Positions 22,718 through 58,231 of a DNA stretch of 64,000 nucleotides are shown here, one piece after another (within the stretch, counting starts at the first letter, position 1; every line of letters starts with the position of its first letter). The stretch comes from Escherichia phage UPEC01. Under the pieces are notes generated by a model. That model had not been told where the DNA came from. It made no database searches and saw only the letters and a program-made list of their open reading frames with translations. The stretch is from the sequence record MW233709; one strand, given 5' to 3'. A program made the position numbers and the translations under genes.

Positions 22718-23536
22718 TTAAGAAATTCGTGATGCTGCGAGAGCAGACAAGTCCGCGAAGGACAGGGTAGGCTTGGCGCCTTTTTCTTCAACTGCTTCTG
22801 AAATGTAATTCAGTGCCGCAGCATCGTCTACATTTTTATTTATAGCGGCTTCGGTGATTGGTTTGTCGGTGGGTTCTACCTGACCTTTAACCATTTCAAC
22901 GATAGCGCCAATTTTGGTACCGAATGCATCAGAGTATTCCATGCCTTCTACCAGAGAACCAACTTTTTCTTTTTGGGATTCAGTCAGGTCTTTAGTTGCT
23001 TCAGTCAACGCAACTTCACGTTGGACATAATTGATATAAGCATCACGCTTAGAAACTTCTTCGAACAGGTTAGCGGTTTCTTCTTTCTGTTCAGCCAGTT
23101 CTTCCTGCATTTCTGCAACAACATCGACAGATTCTTCTGGAACAACAACGTTGTGCTCAACGAACAGTTCTTTCATGCCGGTGAACATGGATTCGAACAG
23201 GTCAGCTTTAATGCCACGGTCGACAGCCAGTTTATTTTCAGCGAGCCATTCTTTAGCAACGTGGTCCAGGAATTTAGCTGCAGATTCTTTCAGTTTTTTC
23301 TCTGCTTTTTCGTCGGCTTCTTCTTTATTCTTTTCGACTTCTTCTTCAGCTTTTTCAGCGATGGCGTGAATGTGAGATTCTGCCAGTTTGATGGCGTGTT
23401 GCTTGACGGTAGCTTCGAATACAGTGCCGAAGGTAGCTTTCGCTTCCGGGGACAAATTAACTGATTCGAAAATACTATCGAGAGCAACGGAAGCATCGAT
23501 ATTCTGAGCTTCAGAAATGAGTTGTTCTTTAAGCAT
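22718..23536 (-). CDS. 22: prohead core scaffold protein gp22
   Basis: 272 aa, acidic coiled-coil; size and position match T4 gp22 (269 aa); late promoter 30 nt upstream. Confidence 0.88.
   Translation of the reverse strand: MLKEQLISEAQNIDASVALDSIFESVNLSPEAKATFGTVFEATVKQHAIKLAESHIHAIAEKAEEEVEKNKEEADEKAEKKLKESAAKFLDHVAKEWLAENKLAVDRGIKADLFESMFTGMKELFVEHNVVVPEESVDVVAEMQEELAEQKEETANLFEEVSKRDAYINYVQREVALTEATKDLTESQKEKVGSLVEGMEYSDAFGTKIGAIVEMVKGQVEPTDKPITEAAINKNVDDAAALNYISEAVEEKGAKPTLSFADLSALAASRIS
22837..22844 (-). promoter_or_regulatory. candidate late promoter TATAAATA inside gene 22 (gene 23)
   Basis: Octamer on minus strand about 140 nt upstream of gp23 ATG; none found closer. Confidence 0.4.
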
Positions 23537-23565: not shown

Positions 23566-23573
23566 TATTTATA
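23566..23573 (-). promoter_or_regulatory. late promoter TATAAATA (gene 22)
   Basis: Octamer on minus strand 30 nt upstream of gp22 ATG. Confidence 0.65.
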
Positions 23574-24207
23574 ACGTCTTTAAAGCCTCTGCGAGAGCCA
23601 TAAAGGCGTCGTCGGCACTTGTATCGGCTTCCGCCGTTTGTGATTCTGTAATCTGCTTTGGTTTGACCCAAGCGTCCGGAGCACTTGGCCCCCATACTGC
23701 ATCTACTCCAACCGTCAATTTAAAACCTTCATTGACGATGTTATAACCTTTTGCTGATTTAGTCAGGGAACCGAGCCCACGACTAGATACACCAGGAATC
23801 CAACCCGCTCTTATATTCGCAGCAAGTTTATCACCTGGGCCATGGTCGCCTTCGATAATACGCGCGCGGCCATATACATCATTCCCTTTCCACCACATTT
23901 CCTCGATAATAATTGCCGCCTGCATAGGGTCAACGTTTGCACGAGGTGGATGGTTTAATTCTCCAAGAGACTGCTTGGTTTCAACCTGTTCGGCGATATA
24001 GTCCGCAACGGCTTTTTCCAAAATATGTTTAGGATAAAGTCGTTTATTACGGTTAACAACTTCAGCTTGTAGGAAAATACCTTCAATATAAAGTCCTGGC
24101 TTTAAACCGCTGCTGGAACCATCATGAGATTCCAACATCGGTACACCATCTTTAATTTCGCCCGGTTGACCCCAGTGTTCGATTAGTAACTCTGGTTTCT
24201 GTTCCAT
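23569..24207 (-). CDS. 21: prohead core protease gp21
   Basis: 212 aa; LIEHWGQPGEI.DGVPMLES.DGSSSGLKPGLYIEGIF.QAEVVNRNKRLYPK...GDHGPGDKLAANIRAGWIPGVSSRGLGSL matches T4 gp21. Confidence 0.95.
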   Translation of the reverse strand: MEQKPELLIEHWGQPGEIKDGVPMLESHDGSSSGLKPGLYIEGIFLQAEVVNRNKRLYPKHILEKAVADYIAEQVETKQSLGELNHPPRANVDPMQAAIIIEEMWWKGNDVYGRARIIEGDHGPGDKLAANIRAGWIPGVSSRGLGSLTKSAKGYNIVNEGFKLTVGVDAVWGPSAPDAWVKPKQITESQTAEADTSADDAFMALAEALKTL

Positions 24208-53499: not shown

Positions 53500-53832
53500 A
53501 TGAACATCAAAACTTACAACGAGTTTTTAGCCGAATCCGCCATCAATGAGACCAAATCAATTGATGATAGTGAAGGCTCTCTGAAATTTGGTTTATCCAA
53601 AAATGCAGATGGTGTTTTCTTTCAGATTGGTAATGAACGTTTTCAAACGTCCAAATATTCCAAAGCTGCAGTTGAAGCTGTCCTGAAATCTGGTGGCAAG
53701 TGGAAAGGCAAAGAAGGTACTAAAGAAATTGGTATCGCTGTTGACGGCGGTATGGCTTATTTTAAAATTGGCGATGAACAATTTATTATGTCTGCTCGCG
53801 GACGTAAAGAACTGGCAAAACTTTATAAATAA
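53500..53832 (+). CDS. internal-protein-like gene 1 (capsid-targeting leader MNIKTYNEFLAE)
   Basis: 110 aa; N-terminus matches the T4 IPI/II/III targeting leader MKTYQEFIAE with an LxE cleavage-type motif; first gene after promoter H. Confidence 0.6.
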   Translation: MNIKTYNEFLAESAINETKSIDDSEGSLKFGLSKNADGVFFQIGNERFQTSKYSKAAVEAVLKSGGKWKGKEGTKEIGIAVDGGMAYFKIGDEQFIMSARGRKELAKLYK

Positions 53833-56291: not shown

Positions 56292-56561
56292 ATGTTAGTA
56301 TTAAAATTAGCTTTTTACGACCCTAAAACAAAGACAACCACTACCAAACGTTGCTCTATTTCGTATGAGTGTCAATTTGGTGAAATTCAGCATCCAACAG
56401 GCGAAACCTTTATGTCAATTGGTTGTTCAACATTCAATAAAGTCAAATTAATCCCGTTGGTTAATACGGCGGCTTATCTGGTTGCTCCAGAAGAAATGAC
56501 TTATCATACAATTCAGCATATGGTTAAAGATGATAATGCTCCTGCTGGATTTGTAATTTAA
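56292..56561 (+). CDS. hypothetical protein
   Basis: 89-aa ORF with GAGGTG RBS; ends 5 nt before the first tRNA. Confidence 0.5.
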   Translation: MLVLKLAFYDPKTKTTTTKRCSISYECQFGEIQHPTGETFMSIGCSTFNKVKLIPLVNTAAYLVAPEEMTYHTIQHMVKDDNAPAGFVI

Positions 56562-56566
56562 TTTTA

Positions 56567-56640
56567 GGCCCTGTAGCTCAATTGGTTAGAGCATCCGGCT
56601 CATAACTGGCAGGTTTCCGGTTCAAGTCCGGATGGGGCCA
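56567..56640 (+). tRNA. tRNA with CAU anticodon (Met or lysidine-type Ile)
   Basis: Cloverleaf by hand: acceptor GGCCCTG/TGGGGCC, D-arm GCTC-AATTGGTTA-GAGC, anticodon loop CTCATAA (one U-C mismatch in stem), T-arm TCCGG-TTCAAGT-CCGGA; T4 itself carries a CAU tRNA-Ile. Confidence 0.8.
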
Positions 56641-56642
56641 CC

Positions 56643-56719
56643 CGGGGTGTAGCTCAATTGTATAGAGCAACGGTCTTCTAAACCGTAGGTTGTGGGTTAG
56701 AATCCCACCACCCCGACCA
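56643..56719 (+). tRNA. tRNA-Arg (anticodon UCU), CCA encoded
   Basis: Acceptor CGGGGTG/CACCCCG, D-arm GCTC...GAGC, anticodon stem ACGGT/ACCGT with loop CTTCTAA, T-arm GTGGG-TTAGAAT-CCCAC, then A-CCA; T4 encodes tRNA-Arg(UCU). Confidence 0.85.
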
Positions 56720-56734
56720 ATTACTGAGGATATT

Positions 56735-56974
56735 ATGGTTATTAGTGAATCATATGCAGTTATGGATATAACCAGCAACGAGCTGGTTTATAGCTTTGAT
56801 GAGTTTGACGAAAATGATAAACAAGTCCCATGGTTTGCATTAACTGCTCCACCTGAACATAATAAATATCTAAGTTTCCCGACTCGCAGACTAGCAACAA
56901 ATTTTATGGAATTCAATGACCTTGATTCCAATTATAAGGTTGTTAAAGTCAAATTAGCTATTACAATTGAATGA
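56735..56974 (+). CDS. hypothetical protein
   Basis: 79 aa from ATG 56735 (GAGGA RBS); the longer track ORF (56690) would overlap tRNA-Arg. Confidence 0.45.
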   Translation: MVISESYAVMDITSNELVYSFDEFDENDKQVPWFALTAPPEHNKYLSFPTRRLATNFMEFNDLDSNYKVVKVKLAITIE

Positions 56975-57164
56975 GAAGCCGGGTCGCTACCGGTAAGTCG
57001 TCGGGGCCTGTTCCCTGGGGTATTGTTCCTCCCACAGTTTTCTGTGTTCTGGTTCTTTACTATCACATCAGGCACGGCGCACCTTTTACGGAGTTTTTCC
57101 AGAGCGGGCGGTGCGCCCGGTAGTATGAGAAATCCGAGCGGATGGTGCATCCGGTACTATGGAA
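56975..57164 (+). ncRNA. candidate small stable structured RNA (cf. T4 species 1/2 RNAs next to the tRNA genes); speculative
   Basis: About 190-nt non-coding, unusually GC-rich segment directly after the tRNAs, with several stable stems (e.g. GGCGCACC...GGTGCGCC, CGGATG-gtg-CATCCG). Confidence 0.25.
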
Positions 57165-57172
57165 TATAAATA
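57165..57172 (+). promoter_or_regulatory. late promoter TATAAATA (leader-bearing ORF 57204)
   Basis: Octamer 31 nt upstream of ATG 57204. Confidence 0.6.
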
Positions 57173-57203
57173 TTAACAACAACCCTAATAATGGAAAAAC
57201 AAA

Positions 57204-57587
57204 ATGCTTACATATGCAGAATTTTTAAATCGCAATACCATCACCGAATCCGTACTGACTGAAGCTGGCAAATTTTCTTTAGTGGCTCCAGAAAAAGCCG
57301 GCGTTTCAATTGGTGACCGTGTTATGTTCAAGAAACCAGTTAATGGCGTTTCTTGGGGTATCGTAACTGGGTTTGGTATCAAAGCTAAAGATGTTAAAAA
57401 CGCCGCCGCGCCAGGTGCTAAACTAGCCGGTTCCAAAGTTTCAACTTATATGGTTCGTCCTAAACAGTCTCCAGGTAATGGTGCCGCTGACTGGGTTGGT
57501 GCTCCAATCGAAATCGCTCGTGATAAATTCTTGAACATCACTGACCGTGCCAACGAACGCGCTGCAATGGCATTCGCTCGCGGATAA
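57204..57587 (+). CDS. internal-protein-like late gene (leader-like MLTYAEFLNRNTITE)
   Basis: 127 aa; N-terminus resembles the capsid-targeting leader with an ITE motif; late promoter TATAAATA 31 nt upstream; terminator downstream. Confidence 0.55.
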   Translation: MLTYAEFLNRNTITESVLTEAGKFSLVAPEKAGVSIGDRVMFKKPVNGVSWGIVTGFGIKAKDVKNAAAPGAKLAGSKVSTYMVRPKQSPGNGAADWVGAPIEIARDKFLNITDRANERAAMAFARG

Positions 57588-57623
57588 GAACACTTGCCTT
57601 GCAGGTGGAACCCCGACAAGGTA

Positions 57624-57652
57624 TAGCCCCTTCCGAAAGGTTGGGGCTTTTT
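57624..57652 (+). terminator. rho-independent terminator after ORF 57204
   Basis: GCCCCttCCgaaaGGttGGGGC followed by T6. Confidence 0.7.
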
Positions 57653-57676
57653 TATAAATCAACTAAAGAGAAACGT

Positions 57677-58231
57677 ATGAAACTGTTAAAATATTTGAGT
57701 TGGATTCTGTTAGTTCCGCTGGATTTTATCTCCATGATTCTGGCCGTTATCCTGGCTCCATTTGTAGTTCCGTTCCATAATAAAAAGACTGGTAAACTTC
57801 CGTTCGGGTTTGATTGGATGATGACTTATGATAATCCGATTGATGGTGACCGTGGTCATATCAAACGTTGGTCAAAAATCCGAAAATGGCCATTAGGTGT
57901 TTACTTCCAACGAGTAGCCTGGCTCTGGCGAAACAAAGCATACAATTTTGCTTACCACAAGCTCGGTCGTGATTGCAATTCAGAATTCCATTATAAAGGT
58001 AATCCTGATGTTGAATCTGGTTCCCCAGATAAAGCTCATCATGGATGGCTCTTTATGTGGACGGACAATGCCTGGGGTGTTTTTGCTTCTGTTCCTTATC
58101 TTAAGGTCGGTGGAATCACCTTTTATCTGCGTGTTTATTGTGGCTGGAAGCTCAAGAGCCTTCTGTCCCGACCCATCCCTAAGGCTATGCTCGCCTTTCA
58201 TATAAATCCGTTCCGCTTTTATAAGAACTAA
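57677..58231 (+). CDS. hypothetical membrane-anchored protein
   Basis: 184 aa from ATG 57677; N-terminal hydrophobic helix LLKYLSWILLVPLDFISMILAVILAPFVVPF; terminator downstream. Confidence 0.5.
   Translation: MKLLKYLSWILLVPLDFISMILAVILAPFVVPFHNKKTGKLPFGFDWMMTYDNPIDGDRGHIKRWSKIRKWPLGVYFQRVAWLWRNKAYNFAYHKLGRDCNSEFHYKGNPDVESGSPDKAHHGWLFMWTDNAWGVFASVPYLKVGGITFYLRVYCGWKLKSLLSRPIPKAMLAFHINPFRFYKN

What the first reader, a model, noticed from the sequence alone, without database searches (positions are those of the whole stretch)
57165..57587. Sixth leader-bearing protein driven by a late promoter, downstream of the tRNA genes
ORF 57204..57587 (127 aa) starts MLTYAEFLNRNTITE, again resembling the capsid-targeting leader with an ITE cleavage-type motif. 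Unlike the upstream array it sits 31 nt after an exact late promoter TATAAATA (57165-57172) and before a strong terminator, which fits a head-packaged protein made at the time of prohead assembly. It may be the IPII/IPIII-type counterpart or a further novel internal protein.
Basis: partly seen in the sequence, partly recalled or inferred. Interest (0 to 1): 0.5.

Follow-up and report, generated by a model that had tools for sequence, protein, structure and literature searches.

The report
Candidate new phage internal head protein
This is a real, strongly conserved late gene of a T4-like coliphage whose product carries the N-terminal tag that T4 uses to load small basic proteins into the head for injection, so it is most likely a new, unannotated member of the known class of internal head proteins.

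Summary
ORF 57204-57587 (127 aa, MLTYAEFLNRNTITE...) lies 31 nt after an exact TATAAATA (57165-57172) and before a hairpin plus T-run (57625-57653). It is a real gene: nine phage copies differ at 43 nucleotide sites, 42 of them at codon position 3, with one amino-acid change.

The leader motif M-x-[TS]-[YF]-x-E-F-[ILMFT] occurs five times in the six-frame translation, four in the internal-protein array and once here. The aromatic residue at position 4 and Phe at position 7, the known targeting determinants, are kept. I-T-E15 and L-T-E20 fit the L/I-x-E rule of the prohead protease, which the window encodes.

The three distant homologues found (38-46% identity, metagenomic T4-like contigs) all carry the same kind of leader, an A/G/T-ATAAATA box 28-34 nt upstream, and a terminator.

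The mature protein would be 11-12 kDa with pI about 10. It is not homologous to T4 IPI, IPII or IPIII, and no Pfam, PHROG or NCBIfam model matches it.

New points: the cassette replaces stable RNA C at the end of the tRNA operon, and a 9-bp helix predicted to hide the ribosome site in read-through RNA resembles the control of T4 gene e. Packaging is inferred, not shown.

The parts
57204..57587 (+). Gene for a 127-aa protein (VR20_145 homologue). It has a CTS-like propeptide (residues 1-15 or 1-20) followed by a basic core of about 107-112 residues.
   Evidence: Searches give the ORF. Among 9 phage copies there are 43 variable sites, 42 at codon position 3, and 1 amino-acid change, V17I. Homologues P0003, P0004 and P0005 were found. 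pI is 10.1-10.3 after cleavage.
57204..57263 (+). Codons 1-20. They encode the leader MLTYAEFL (Tyr4 and Phe7 kept) and two candidate prohead-protease sites, I-T-E15|S and L-T-E20|A.
   Evidence: Motif scan. T4 IPI leader for comparison. CTS determinants and the L/I-X-E rule come from PMC9026906. The first 48 nt are invariant in the 9 copies.
57165..57172 (+). T4-type late promoter box TATAAATA. The inferred start site is near 57178, giving a 5' UTR of about 26 nt.
   Evidence: Exact match, with the octamer 4.5-fold enriched in the window. Invariant in 9 phages. Placing the box at -13 to -6 follows PMC1524935. Homologues have GATAAATA or AATAAATA 28-34 nt before their ATG.
57093..57101 (+). 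5' arm (GUUUUUCCA) of a predicted long-range helix that pairs with the Shine-Dalgarno region. It lies upstream of the late promoter, so it is present only in read-through RNA.
   Evidence: The helix is in both the MFE and the centroid of 57084-57215. A 9-bp perfect complement has shuffle P of 0.001-0.005, and it is the only one of that length among 104 ORFs. It also appears in the consensus fold of 9 phages.
57192..57200 (+). 3' arm (UGGAAAAAC), containing the GGA of the ribosome binding site 8 nt before the ATG.
   Evidence: RNA starting at 57178 is essentially unstructured, at -4.2 kcal/mol with an open centroid.
57102..57169 (+). 34-nt tandem repeat (57102-57135 and 57136-57169). Each unit carries a 6-bp hairpin with a GUG triloop (57105-57119 and 57139-57153). 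The second unit runs into the late promoter.
   Evidence: Read from the sequence and the fold. In hairpin 1 one pair is G-C in 4 phages and A-U in 5. An 18-nt core, TTCCAGAGCGGGCGGTGC, is shared with the distant relative L015.
57625..57653 (+). Intrinsic terminator (6-bp G+C stem, internal loop, GAAA-capped tip, then T6). It is the same element that ends the tRNA / stable-RNA operon after rnaC in T4, SP18, CJ20 and G2469.
   Evidence: fold; the identical sequence after rnaC in relatives; conserved in 9 phages.
56971..57083 (+). Homologue of T4 stable RNA D (species 2 RNA). It forms the left border of the cassette.
   Evidence: match to features annotated rnaD / species 2 RNA in T4; T4 layout; both ends of T4 rnaD align at 56971-57004 and 57057-57083.

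Best explanation
ORF 57204-57587 encodes a previously unannotated type of T4-style internal head protein, expressed from its own late-gene cassette.

Proposed sequence of events:
1. Late in infection, gp55-type RNA polymerase starts at about 57178, downstream of TATAAATA, and stops at the terminator at 57625-57653. This step is inferred from motifs that are conserved in relatives.
2. Longer RNAs that read through from the tRNA / stable-RNA D operon contain a 5' arm (57093-57101) that pairs with the ribosome binding site (57192-57200). They are therefore poorly translated, as in T4 genes e, soc, 49 and I-TevI. This step is inferred from folding and a chance test.
3. The N-terminal propeptide MLTYAEFL... 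acts as a capsid targeting sequence and takes the protein into the scaffolding core of the prohead. This step is inferred from the match to the experimentally defined determinants.
4. The phage's Peptidase_S77 prohead protease cuts after Glu15 (I-T-E) and/or Glu20 (L-T-E). This step is inferred.
5. The resulting protein of about 11-12 kDa and pI about 10 is predicted at moderate confidence to be a small SH3-like beta-barrel with a C-terminal helix. It stays with the packaged DNA and enters the host with it.
6. Its job after injection is unknown. By analogy with T4 IPI*, an early-acting counter-defence or DNA-protecting role is the best guess.
For: - **Real gene under very strong purifying selection.** 42 of 43 variable sites are at codon position 3, with one amino-acid change among 9 copies.
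- **Leader specificity.** There are five motif hits in the six-frame 64-kb translation, four at first Mets of the internal-protein array and one here. Array members hit PHROGs named internal head or virion protein.
- **Targeting and cleavage rules.** Targeting determinants are residues 4 and 7, processing determinants are residues 8 and 10, and cleavage follows L/I-X-E (PMC9026906). Here Tyr4, Phe7 and Leu8 are kept. Position 10 is Arg, so the first usable site is I-T-E15, as in the T4 IPI leader ...STITE|A.
- **Leader travels with the core domain.** P0003 begins MYTFKEFLVESELDLITEA, P0004 begins MKSFKEFMLSEK and P0005 begins MLTYNEFLEEKSGNNLTEA, at 38-46% identity.
- **Conserved cassette and context.** Relatives sit in T4-like contigs, two of them right after tRNA genes. 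They have an (A/G)ATAAATA box 28-34 nt upstream and a hairpin plus T-run downstream. A at -13 is common in T4-like late promoters (PMC1524935).
- **Promoter, UTR and terminator are invariant or nearly so in 9 phages**.
- **Machinery is present in the window.** Peptidase_S77 at 23569-24207(-), plus T4 scaffold gp22, gp23, gp24, portal, gp67 and gp68.
- **Basic and small like T4 IPII and IPIII**, whose pI values are 9.3 and 9.5.
- **RBS-occluding helix.**, with the precedent in PMC3014915. Relatives L015 and L014 also fold with the initiation region paired to a segment upstream of the promoter.
Against: - There is no direct evidence of packaging, cleavage or late transcription. No virion proteome was found for any of the 15 phages that carry the gene.
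- Position 2 is Leu rather than Lys, and positions 9-10 (N-R) differ from the canonical CTS.
- The gene lies outside the classical polymorphic IP locus.
- It is almost invariant at the protein level, unlike the fast-evolving IPs.
- The Shine-Dalgarno is weak (GGA only).
- The occluding helix shows no covariation among the 9 close copies because both arms are invariant. The whole-region folding z-score is only -1.55.
- Codon usage did not separate late from early genes.
Confidence: 0.65

Rival explanations
1. It is a late cytoplasmic protein that is not packaged, for example a DNA- or RNA-binding factor acting in late infection. On this reading the CTS-like N-terminus is a relic, carried along because the leader-coding DNA is a recombination junction in T4-like phages.
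For: - The core is predicted as an SH3-like barrel of the chromo/KOW/PWWP/Tudor kind, a fold often used to bind nucleic acids.
- The gene lies outside the IP locus.
- Its near-invariant protein sequence is atypical for arms-race IPs.
- Positions 9-10 deviate from the canonical CTS.
Against: - The leader is retained in all four diverged lineages at 38-46% core identity, each with an L/I-x-E site. A relic would be expected to decay.
- A 10-residue CTS is sufficient to load foreign proteins into T4 heads (PMC9026906 and PMC3012670). A late-made protein with Tyr4 and Phe7 intact would therefore probably be packaged anyway.
Confidence: 0.22
2. It is expressed mainly before late times, as part of the tRNA / stable-RNA operon transcript. 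The TATAAATA would then be a chance or minor promoter, so the protein is an early effector rather than a head component.
For: - No convincing terminator separates the tRNAs and rnaD from the ORF.
- The ORF uses the operon's terminator.
- T4 ipII and ipIII themselves have sigma-70-like promoters directly upstream (sequence).
Against: - TATAAATA and its spacing are invariant in 9 phages, and an ATAAATA box at 28-34 nt recurs in all three distant homologues.
- The read-through RNA is predicted to hide the ribosome site, whereas RNA starting at the late promoter is open.
- Early synthesis would not exclude packaging in any case.
Confidence: 0.08
3. It is not a gene. On this reading the ORF is a chance open frame in the spacer after the stable RNA.
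For: All GenBank records call it a hypothetical protein, and no family model matches.
Against: - Codon-position pattern of variation: 42 of 43 variable sites at position 3, with the protein 100% identical in 14 of 15 records while the DNA differs by up to 6%.
- Homologues at 38-46% identity exist in other T4-like contigs.
Confidence: 0.01

Closest known systems
T4 internal protein I (IPI, mature form IPI*, inhibitor of the GmrS/GmrD type IV restriction enzyme)
   Same: - Both are small proteins with a long propeptide of the form M-x-T-[FY]-x-E-F..., cut at an I-T-E site rather than at residue 10. T4 IPI reads MKTFKEFTSTTTPVSTITE|A, and this protein reads MLTYAEFLNRNTITE|S.
- Both phages have a Peptidase_S77 prohead protease.
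   Different: - There is no sequence similarity in the mature part (BLASTP E = 0.53).
- The locus differs: this gene follows the tRNAs and rnaD, not the slot between 57B and trna.4.
- No target is known.
T4 IPII and IPIII (abundant basic internal head proteins)
   Same: - The leader type is the same (MKTYQEFIAE in T4 versus MLTYAEFLNR here), with the targeting residues Tyr4 and Phe7 kept.
- Both are basic: pI 9.3 and 9.5 for IPII and IPIII, about 10 here.
- Both lie downstream of the tRNA region in map order.
   Different: - Similarity stops after residues 8-16, so this is not a homologue.
- Glu10 is replaced by Arg, which moves the cleavage site to Glu15 or Glu20.
- T4 ipII and ipIII have early-type promoters directly upstream, whereas this gene has an exact late box.
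Translational gating of T4 genes e, soc, 49 and I-TevI by an RNA helix that late promoters bypass
   Same: The ribosome binding site is paired with a segment that lies upstream of a late promoter. Transcripts started at the late promoter lack the inhibitory 5' arm (PMC3014915).
   Different: - Here the arms are about 90 nt apart and enclose two further hairpins.
- The helix is only predicted.
- There is no covariation among close relatives.
T4 stable RNA C (rnaC, species 1 RNA) slot of the tRNA operon
   Same: The borders are the same. On the left is the 3' end of rnaD (...ACGGCGCACC). On the right are AACACTTGCCTTGCAGG and the operon terminator.
   Different: In this phage and 14 relatives the slot holds a 505-nt protein-coding late cassette instead of the ~139-nt tRNA-like RNA (139 nt in T4). 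No rnaC-like sequence is found anywhere in the window.

Membership tests
T4-type internal head proteins (CTS-bearing, prohead-protease-processed, injected) | N-terminal capsid targeting sequence, with an aromatic residue at position 4 and Phe at position 7 | tested here: met
   MLTYAEFL has Tyr4 and Phe7. The motif has five hits in the six-frame window, four in the IP array and one here. The determinants are taken from PMC9026906.
T4-type internal head proteins (CTS-bearing, prohead-protease-processed, injected) | L/I-X-E cleavage site at the end of the propeptide | tested here: met
   I13-T14-E15 and L18-T19-E20 are present. Homologues have LVE/ITE, LSE and LEE/LTE. The specificity of the triplet alone is low.
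T4-type internal head proteins (CTS-bearing, prohead-protease-processed, injected) | The genome encodes the gp21-type prohead protease and the gp22 scaffolding core | tested here: met
   Peptidase_S77 with E = 7e-102 at 23569-24207(-), and T4_CASP with E = 3e-91 at 22718-23536(-).
T4-type internal head proteins (CTS-bearing, prohead-protease-processed, injected) | Small basic mature protein | tested here: met
   11.1-11.7 kDa and pI 10.1-10.3 after cleavage.
T4-type internal head proteins (CTS-bearing, prohead-protease-processed, injected) | Physically present in the virion head in processed form and ejected with the DNA | not testable with these tools
   No proteomic data were found for the 15 carrier phages.
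T4-type internal head proteins (CTS-bearing, prohead-protease-processed, injected) | Location in the polymorphic IP locus between 57B and trna.4 | tested here: not met
   The gene lies about 2 kb downstream, after tRNA-Arg and rnaD. T4 ipII and ipIII are also outside that locus, so this feature is typical rather than strictly defining.
T4 IPII / IPIII / IPI sequence families | Sequence homology of the mature part | tested here: not met
   BLASTP E values are 0.19, 0.094 and 0.53, with alignments confined to the leader or spurious. No PHROG, Pfam, NCBIfam or PADLOC model matches.
T4 late genes (gp55/gp33/gp45-dependent) | TATAAATA box placed so that transcription starts just upstream of the ribosome site | tested here: met
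   Exact box at 57165-57172, invariant in 9 phages. Positioning follows PMC1524935.
T4 late genes (gp55/gp33/gp45-dependent) | A transcript 5' end at the predicted site late in infection | not testable with these tools
   No transcriptome data are available here.
Late-promoter-bypassed inhibitory RNA helix (T4 e / soc / 49 / I-TevI type) | SD and/or AUG paired with a segment upstream of the late promoter in long transcripts, and free in late transcripts | tested here: inconclusive
   A 9-bp helix is present in the MFE and the centroid, and the late RNA is open. Chance P is 0.001-0.005. There is no covariation among close copies. Analogous pairings are predicted in L015 and L014 but not examined for L016.

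The most novel reading that the evidence does not exclude
The cassette encodes a new, very rare family of injected head proteins. At a 50% identity cut-off there are three full-length lineages, plus a fragment of the window's own type, among 1.84 billion representatives. The protein would have an SH3-like barrel core and would be held almost invariant because it hits one specific, conserved host target, in the way IPI* hits GmrSD. It was acquired at the cost of stable RNA C. This would show that rnaC is dispensable and that the end of the tRNA operon is a second hot spot where T4-like phages swap late, head-delivered effectors, each gated by an e-type RNA helix.
Probability: 0.25. Interest if true: 0.55.

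Novelty: new member of a known kind. Interest (0 to 1): 0.38.

Why it matters
Internal head proteins are the first phage proteins to reach the host cytoplasm. The one with a known function, T4 IPI*, is a dedicated inhibitor of a restriction system.

A new family that is leader-tagged, late-made and unusually well conserved is a concrete candidate for another injected counter-defence or DNA-protecting factor. It is easy to test by virion mass spectrometry and by gene deletion on strain panels.

The finding also gives a natural deletion of stable RNA C, whose role in T4 has remained unknown. It adds a likely further example of the T4 trick of restricting translation to late-promoter transcripts.

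For annotation, it means that VR20_145 and its 14 copies should not stay 'hypothetical'. It also suggests that a minus-strand CDS called over rnaD in some records is probably spurious.

Tried and rejected
- **Family libraries.** Pfam, PHROGs, NCBIfam and PADLOC scans of the protein and its homologues found nothing.
- **PDB sequence profile search.** Only noise, with E of 0.38 or higher.
- **Structure prediction.** Single-sequence AlphaFold was unusable (pLDDT 36). The 5-sequence model was moderate (pLDDT 64).
- **Codon usage.** A log-likelihood test of late versus early codon usage did not separate the control sets, so it was dropped.
- **Rfam.** Searching 56400-57800 found only the two tRNAs. 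Rfam produced no rnaC or rnaD match here, so rnaD was identified by BLAST to the annotated T4 feature.
- **More family members.** Scans of IMG/VR and JGI metagenome contigs found only copies identical to the window's protein.
- **Literature.** Searches for virion proteomics of VR20, P8, UPEC07, DK-13, MN01, ECML-359 and EAWsc9 found none.
- **Covariation test of the RBS-occluding helix.** The attempt failed because MAFFT aligned the single repeat of L015 to the second repeat of the window.
- **Group I intron or homing element.** I briefly thought of the G+C-rich stretch at 56972-57165 as a possible mobile element. It is instead rnaD plus a 34-nt repeat.

Full report
**1. What the window is**

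The region is 99.9% identical to Escherichia virus TH41 and 91-96% identical to VR20-like Gapriverviruses, which are T4-type phages. Gene order follows T4: gene 1, 57A, 57B, an array of leader-bearing small proteins, trna.4, trna.3, tRNAs, stable RNA, then e.6-type genes. The window also holds the head-morphogenesis block. This comprises the Peptidase_S77 prohead protease (23569-24207, minus strand), the gp22 scaffold, gp23, gp24, the portal, gp67 and gp68.

**2. The observation**

- The ORF runs 57204-57587, is 127 aa long and starts MLTYAEFLNRNTITES.
- TATAAATA is exact at 57165-57172, 31 nt before the ATG. The octamer occurs 22 times in the window against 4.9 expected.
- tRNA-Met(CAT) and tRNA-Arg(TCT) lie at 56567-56719.
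- A hairpin at 57625-57648 followed by six T forms the terminator. The region 57588-57662 folds at -27.3 kcal/mol with z = -2.9.

One detail is wrong. The upstream array is not devoid of late boxes, because TATAAATA also occurs at 53824-53831.

**3. It is a real gene**

tblastn finds the protein in only 15 of 50,697 phage records, all at 99% amino-acid identity or higher. Among nine copies the DNA differs at 43 sites. Forty-two of these are at codon position 3, and there is a single amino-acid change, V17I. That pattern cannot arise in non-coding DNA or in another frame. All records call it a hypothetical protein, for example VR20_145. No Pfam, PHROG, NCBIfam or PADLOC model matches.

**4. The leader**

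The pattern M-x-[TS]-[YF]-x-E-F-[ILMFT] occurs exactly five times in the six-frame translation of the 64-kb window. Each hit is at the first Met of an ORF, four in the array at 53.8-55.1 kb and one at 57204. A fifth array ORF, at 53500, carries the same core two residues in, as MNIKTYNEFLAES. Three array members match PHROGs named internal head or internal virion protein.

Published work on T4 IPIII gives the functional rules (PMC9026906):

- The first ten residues suffice for head targeting.
- Targeting depends mainly on residues 4 and 7.
- Processing depends on residues 8 and 10.
- The gp21 protease cuts after L/I-X-E.

Here Tyr4, Phe7 and Leu8 are kept but residue 10 is Arg. The first usable sites are therefore I-T-E15 and L-T-E20. 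T4 IPI has the same layout, MKTFKEFTSTTTPVSTITE|A (sequence; the cleavage point is from my own knowledge of the IPI* literature). An L/I-x-E triplet alone is weak evidence. The leader motif is the specific part.

**5. Distant relatives**

An exhaustive HMMER search of 1.84 billion representatives found only three hits. One is a fragment of the same protein and two are true relatives. A profile search added one more. All three relatives have a CTS-like leader followed by an L/I-x-E site:

| Protein | Length | Core identity | N-terminus |
|---|---|---|---|
| P0003 | 202 aa | 46% | MYTFKEFLVESELDLITEA... |
| P0004 | 125 aa | 38% | MKSFKEFMLSEK... |
| P0005 | 134 aa | 40% | MLTYNEFLEEKSGNNLTEA... 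|

The conserved core reads SIGDxVxxxKPxxGxxxGxxxGFxxxxKxxKNAGAPxxxxAGSKV....

All three lie on metagenomic contigs with T4-family genes. Two of them sit directly after tRNA genes. Each has GATAAATA or AATAAATA 28-34 nt before its ATG and a hairpin plus T-run after its stop codon. An A at -13 is common in late promoters of T4 relatives (PMC1524935). The leader, the late box, the terminator and, in part, the position have therefore travelled with this domain across deep divergence. This is the strongest argument that the leader is functional.

**6. What it is not**

Similarity to T4 IPII and IPIII ends within the leader, and there is none to IPI. It is therefore not the IPII/IPIII counterpart. 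It is a separate family.

**7. The protein**

**8. Anatomy of the cassette (new here)**

The stretch 56971-57083 is the homologue of T4 stable RNA D. In T4, SP18, CJ20 and the Mosigvirus G2469, rnaD is followed by stable RNA C. After rnaC come the sequence AACACTTGCCTTGCAGG... and the operon terminator.

In the window, that same right-hand sequence begins one base after the ORF's stop codon. No rnaC-like sequence exists anywhere in the window. A 505-nt cassette (57084-57588) thus replaces rnaC exactly and borrows its terminator.

The cassette begins with a 34-nt tandem repeat (57102-57135 and 57136-57169). Each unit has a 6-bp hairpin and a GUG triloop. One pair of hairpin 1 is G-C in four phages and A-U in five.

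The block from about 57093 to 57251 covers the repeat, the promoter, the UTR and the first 16 codons. It is almost invariant in nine phages, while the rest of the gene varies at about 12% of sites.

**9. A likely translational gate**

The segment GUUUUUCCA (57093-57101) is a perfect complement of UGGAAAAAC (57192-57200), which contains the GGA of the ribosome site. The helix closes both the MFE and the centroid structure of 57084-57215. RNA starting at the inferred late start (57178) is essentially unstructured.

A 9-bp perfect match between the pre-promoter segment and the initiation region arises in 0.1-0.5% of shuffles. It is also the only one of that length among 104 ORFs of 80 aa or more in the window. 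The late promoter lies inside the loop.

This is the architecture described for T4 genes e, soc, 49 and I-TevI, where read-through RNA is not translated and late-promoter RNA is (PMC3014915). It makes sense here because no convincing terminator separates the tRNA / rnaD transcript from the ORF. Relatives L015 and L014 are also predicted to pair their initiation regions with a segment upstream of the promoter box. The helix remains a prediction, because both arms are invariant among the close copies and no covariation test was possible.

**10. Verdict**

| Status | Points |
|---|---|
| Shown | The ORF is a gene under strong constraint. The leader motif is specific. The late box and terminator are conserved. 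The processing machinery is encoded. The family is new to the libraries and very rare. The cassette replaces rnaC. |
| Inferred | Late transcription from 57178. Translational gating. Targeting to the prohead core. Cleavage at Glu15 and/or Glu20. Injection with the DNA. |
| Unknown | The function after injection. |

I put about 0.65 on a packaged, processed internal head protein. I put about 0.22 on a late protein that is not packaged and about 0.08 on mainly pre-late expression. The reading that it is not a gene is essentially excluded.

It is a new member of a known kind and of moderate interest. Leader-tagged polymorphic head proteins are well known in T4-like phages. The near-invariance, the displacement of rnaC and the e-type gate are still worth a short experimental follow-up.

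Noticed in passing
window 56971-57083: This is a homologue of T4 stable RNA D (species 2 RNA), unannotated in most related records. The central part differs between phage subgroups, with a T2-like version here and an SP18/T4-like version in VR20 and DK-13, while both ends are conserved.
   Followed up: partly
window 57084-57588, compared with L010 2694-2840 and L002 4125-4263: Stable RNA C (species 1 RNA) is absent from the whole window. Its slot between rnaD and the operon terminator is taken by the ORF127 cassette. The relative L014 has both an rnaC homologue (81-222) and the protein gene.
   Followed up: partly
window 57102-57169: A 34-nt tandem repeat whose units each carry a 6-bp hairpin with a GUG triloop. 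One pair shows a compensatory G-C / A-U change among nine phages. An 18-nt core, TTCCAGAGCGGGCGGTGC, recurs in the distant contig L015 (2903-2920). Its function is unknown; a processing or protein-binding site is possible.
   Followed up: partly
window 57677-58231: A DUF7338 / phrog_2143 membrane protein gene, called 'holin' or 'amidase-6 domain' in some records. It is preceded by TATAAATC here and by exact TATAAATA in VR20 and TH40. The whole gene is absent in TH54, P896 and SP18.
   Followed up: partly
window 56932-57150, minus strand: This 72-aa ORF lies where a minus-strand CDS is annotated in pEC-M719-6WT.2, with a shorter minus-strand CDS nearby in UPEC07. It overlaps the rnaD homologue and the hairpin repeat, so it is probably a spurious call.
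   Followed up: no
L012 2881-3507 (Mosigvirus vB_EcoM_G2469, G2469_00143): A 208-aa protein starting MYTFNEFLAETEVITEAG sits just after the same operon terminator, with an exact TATAAATA. It is another leader-bearing late protein at the end of the tRNA operon and is unrelated in its mature part.
   Followed up: partly
window 53824-53831: An exact TATAAATA lies inside the end of the first array ORF, 9 nt before the ATG of the second (53841). The internal-protein array therefore also has a late-promoter box.
   Followed up: no
window 56735-56974: A 79-aa ORF (phrog_33509) is inserted between tRNA-Arg and rnaD, which are adjacent in T4. Its stop codon overlaps the first bases of the rnaD homologue. 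TH40 differs in the sequence immediately upstream of rnaD.
   Followed up: no
window 56567-56642: The tRNA with anticodon CAT is called Met by ARAGORN but tRNA-Ile2 in the EAWsc9 record. T4-like CAU tRNAs are thought to be lysidine-modified Ile tRNAs (PMC1524935).
   Followed up: no
window 57204-57251: The first 16 codons show no synonymous variation in nine phages, whereas the remaining 112 codons show 42 silent changes. This suggests a nucleotide-level constraint, such as translation start or a recombination junction, in addition to the protein-level one.
   Followed up: partly
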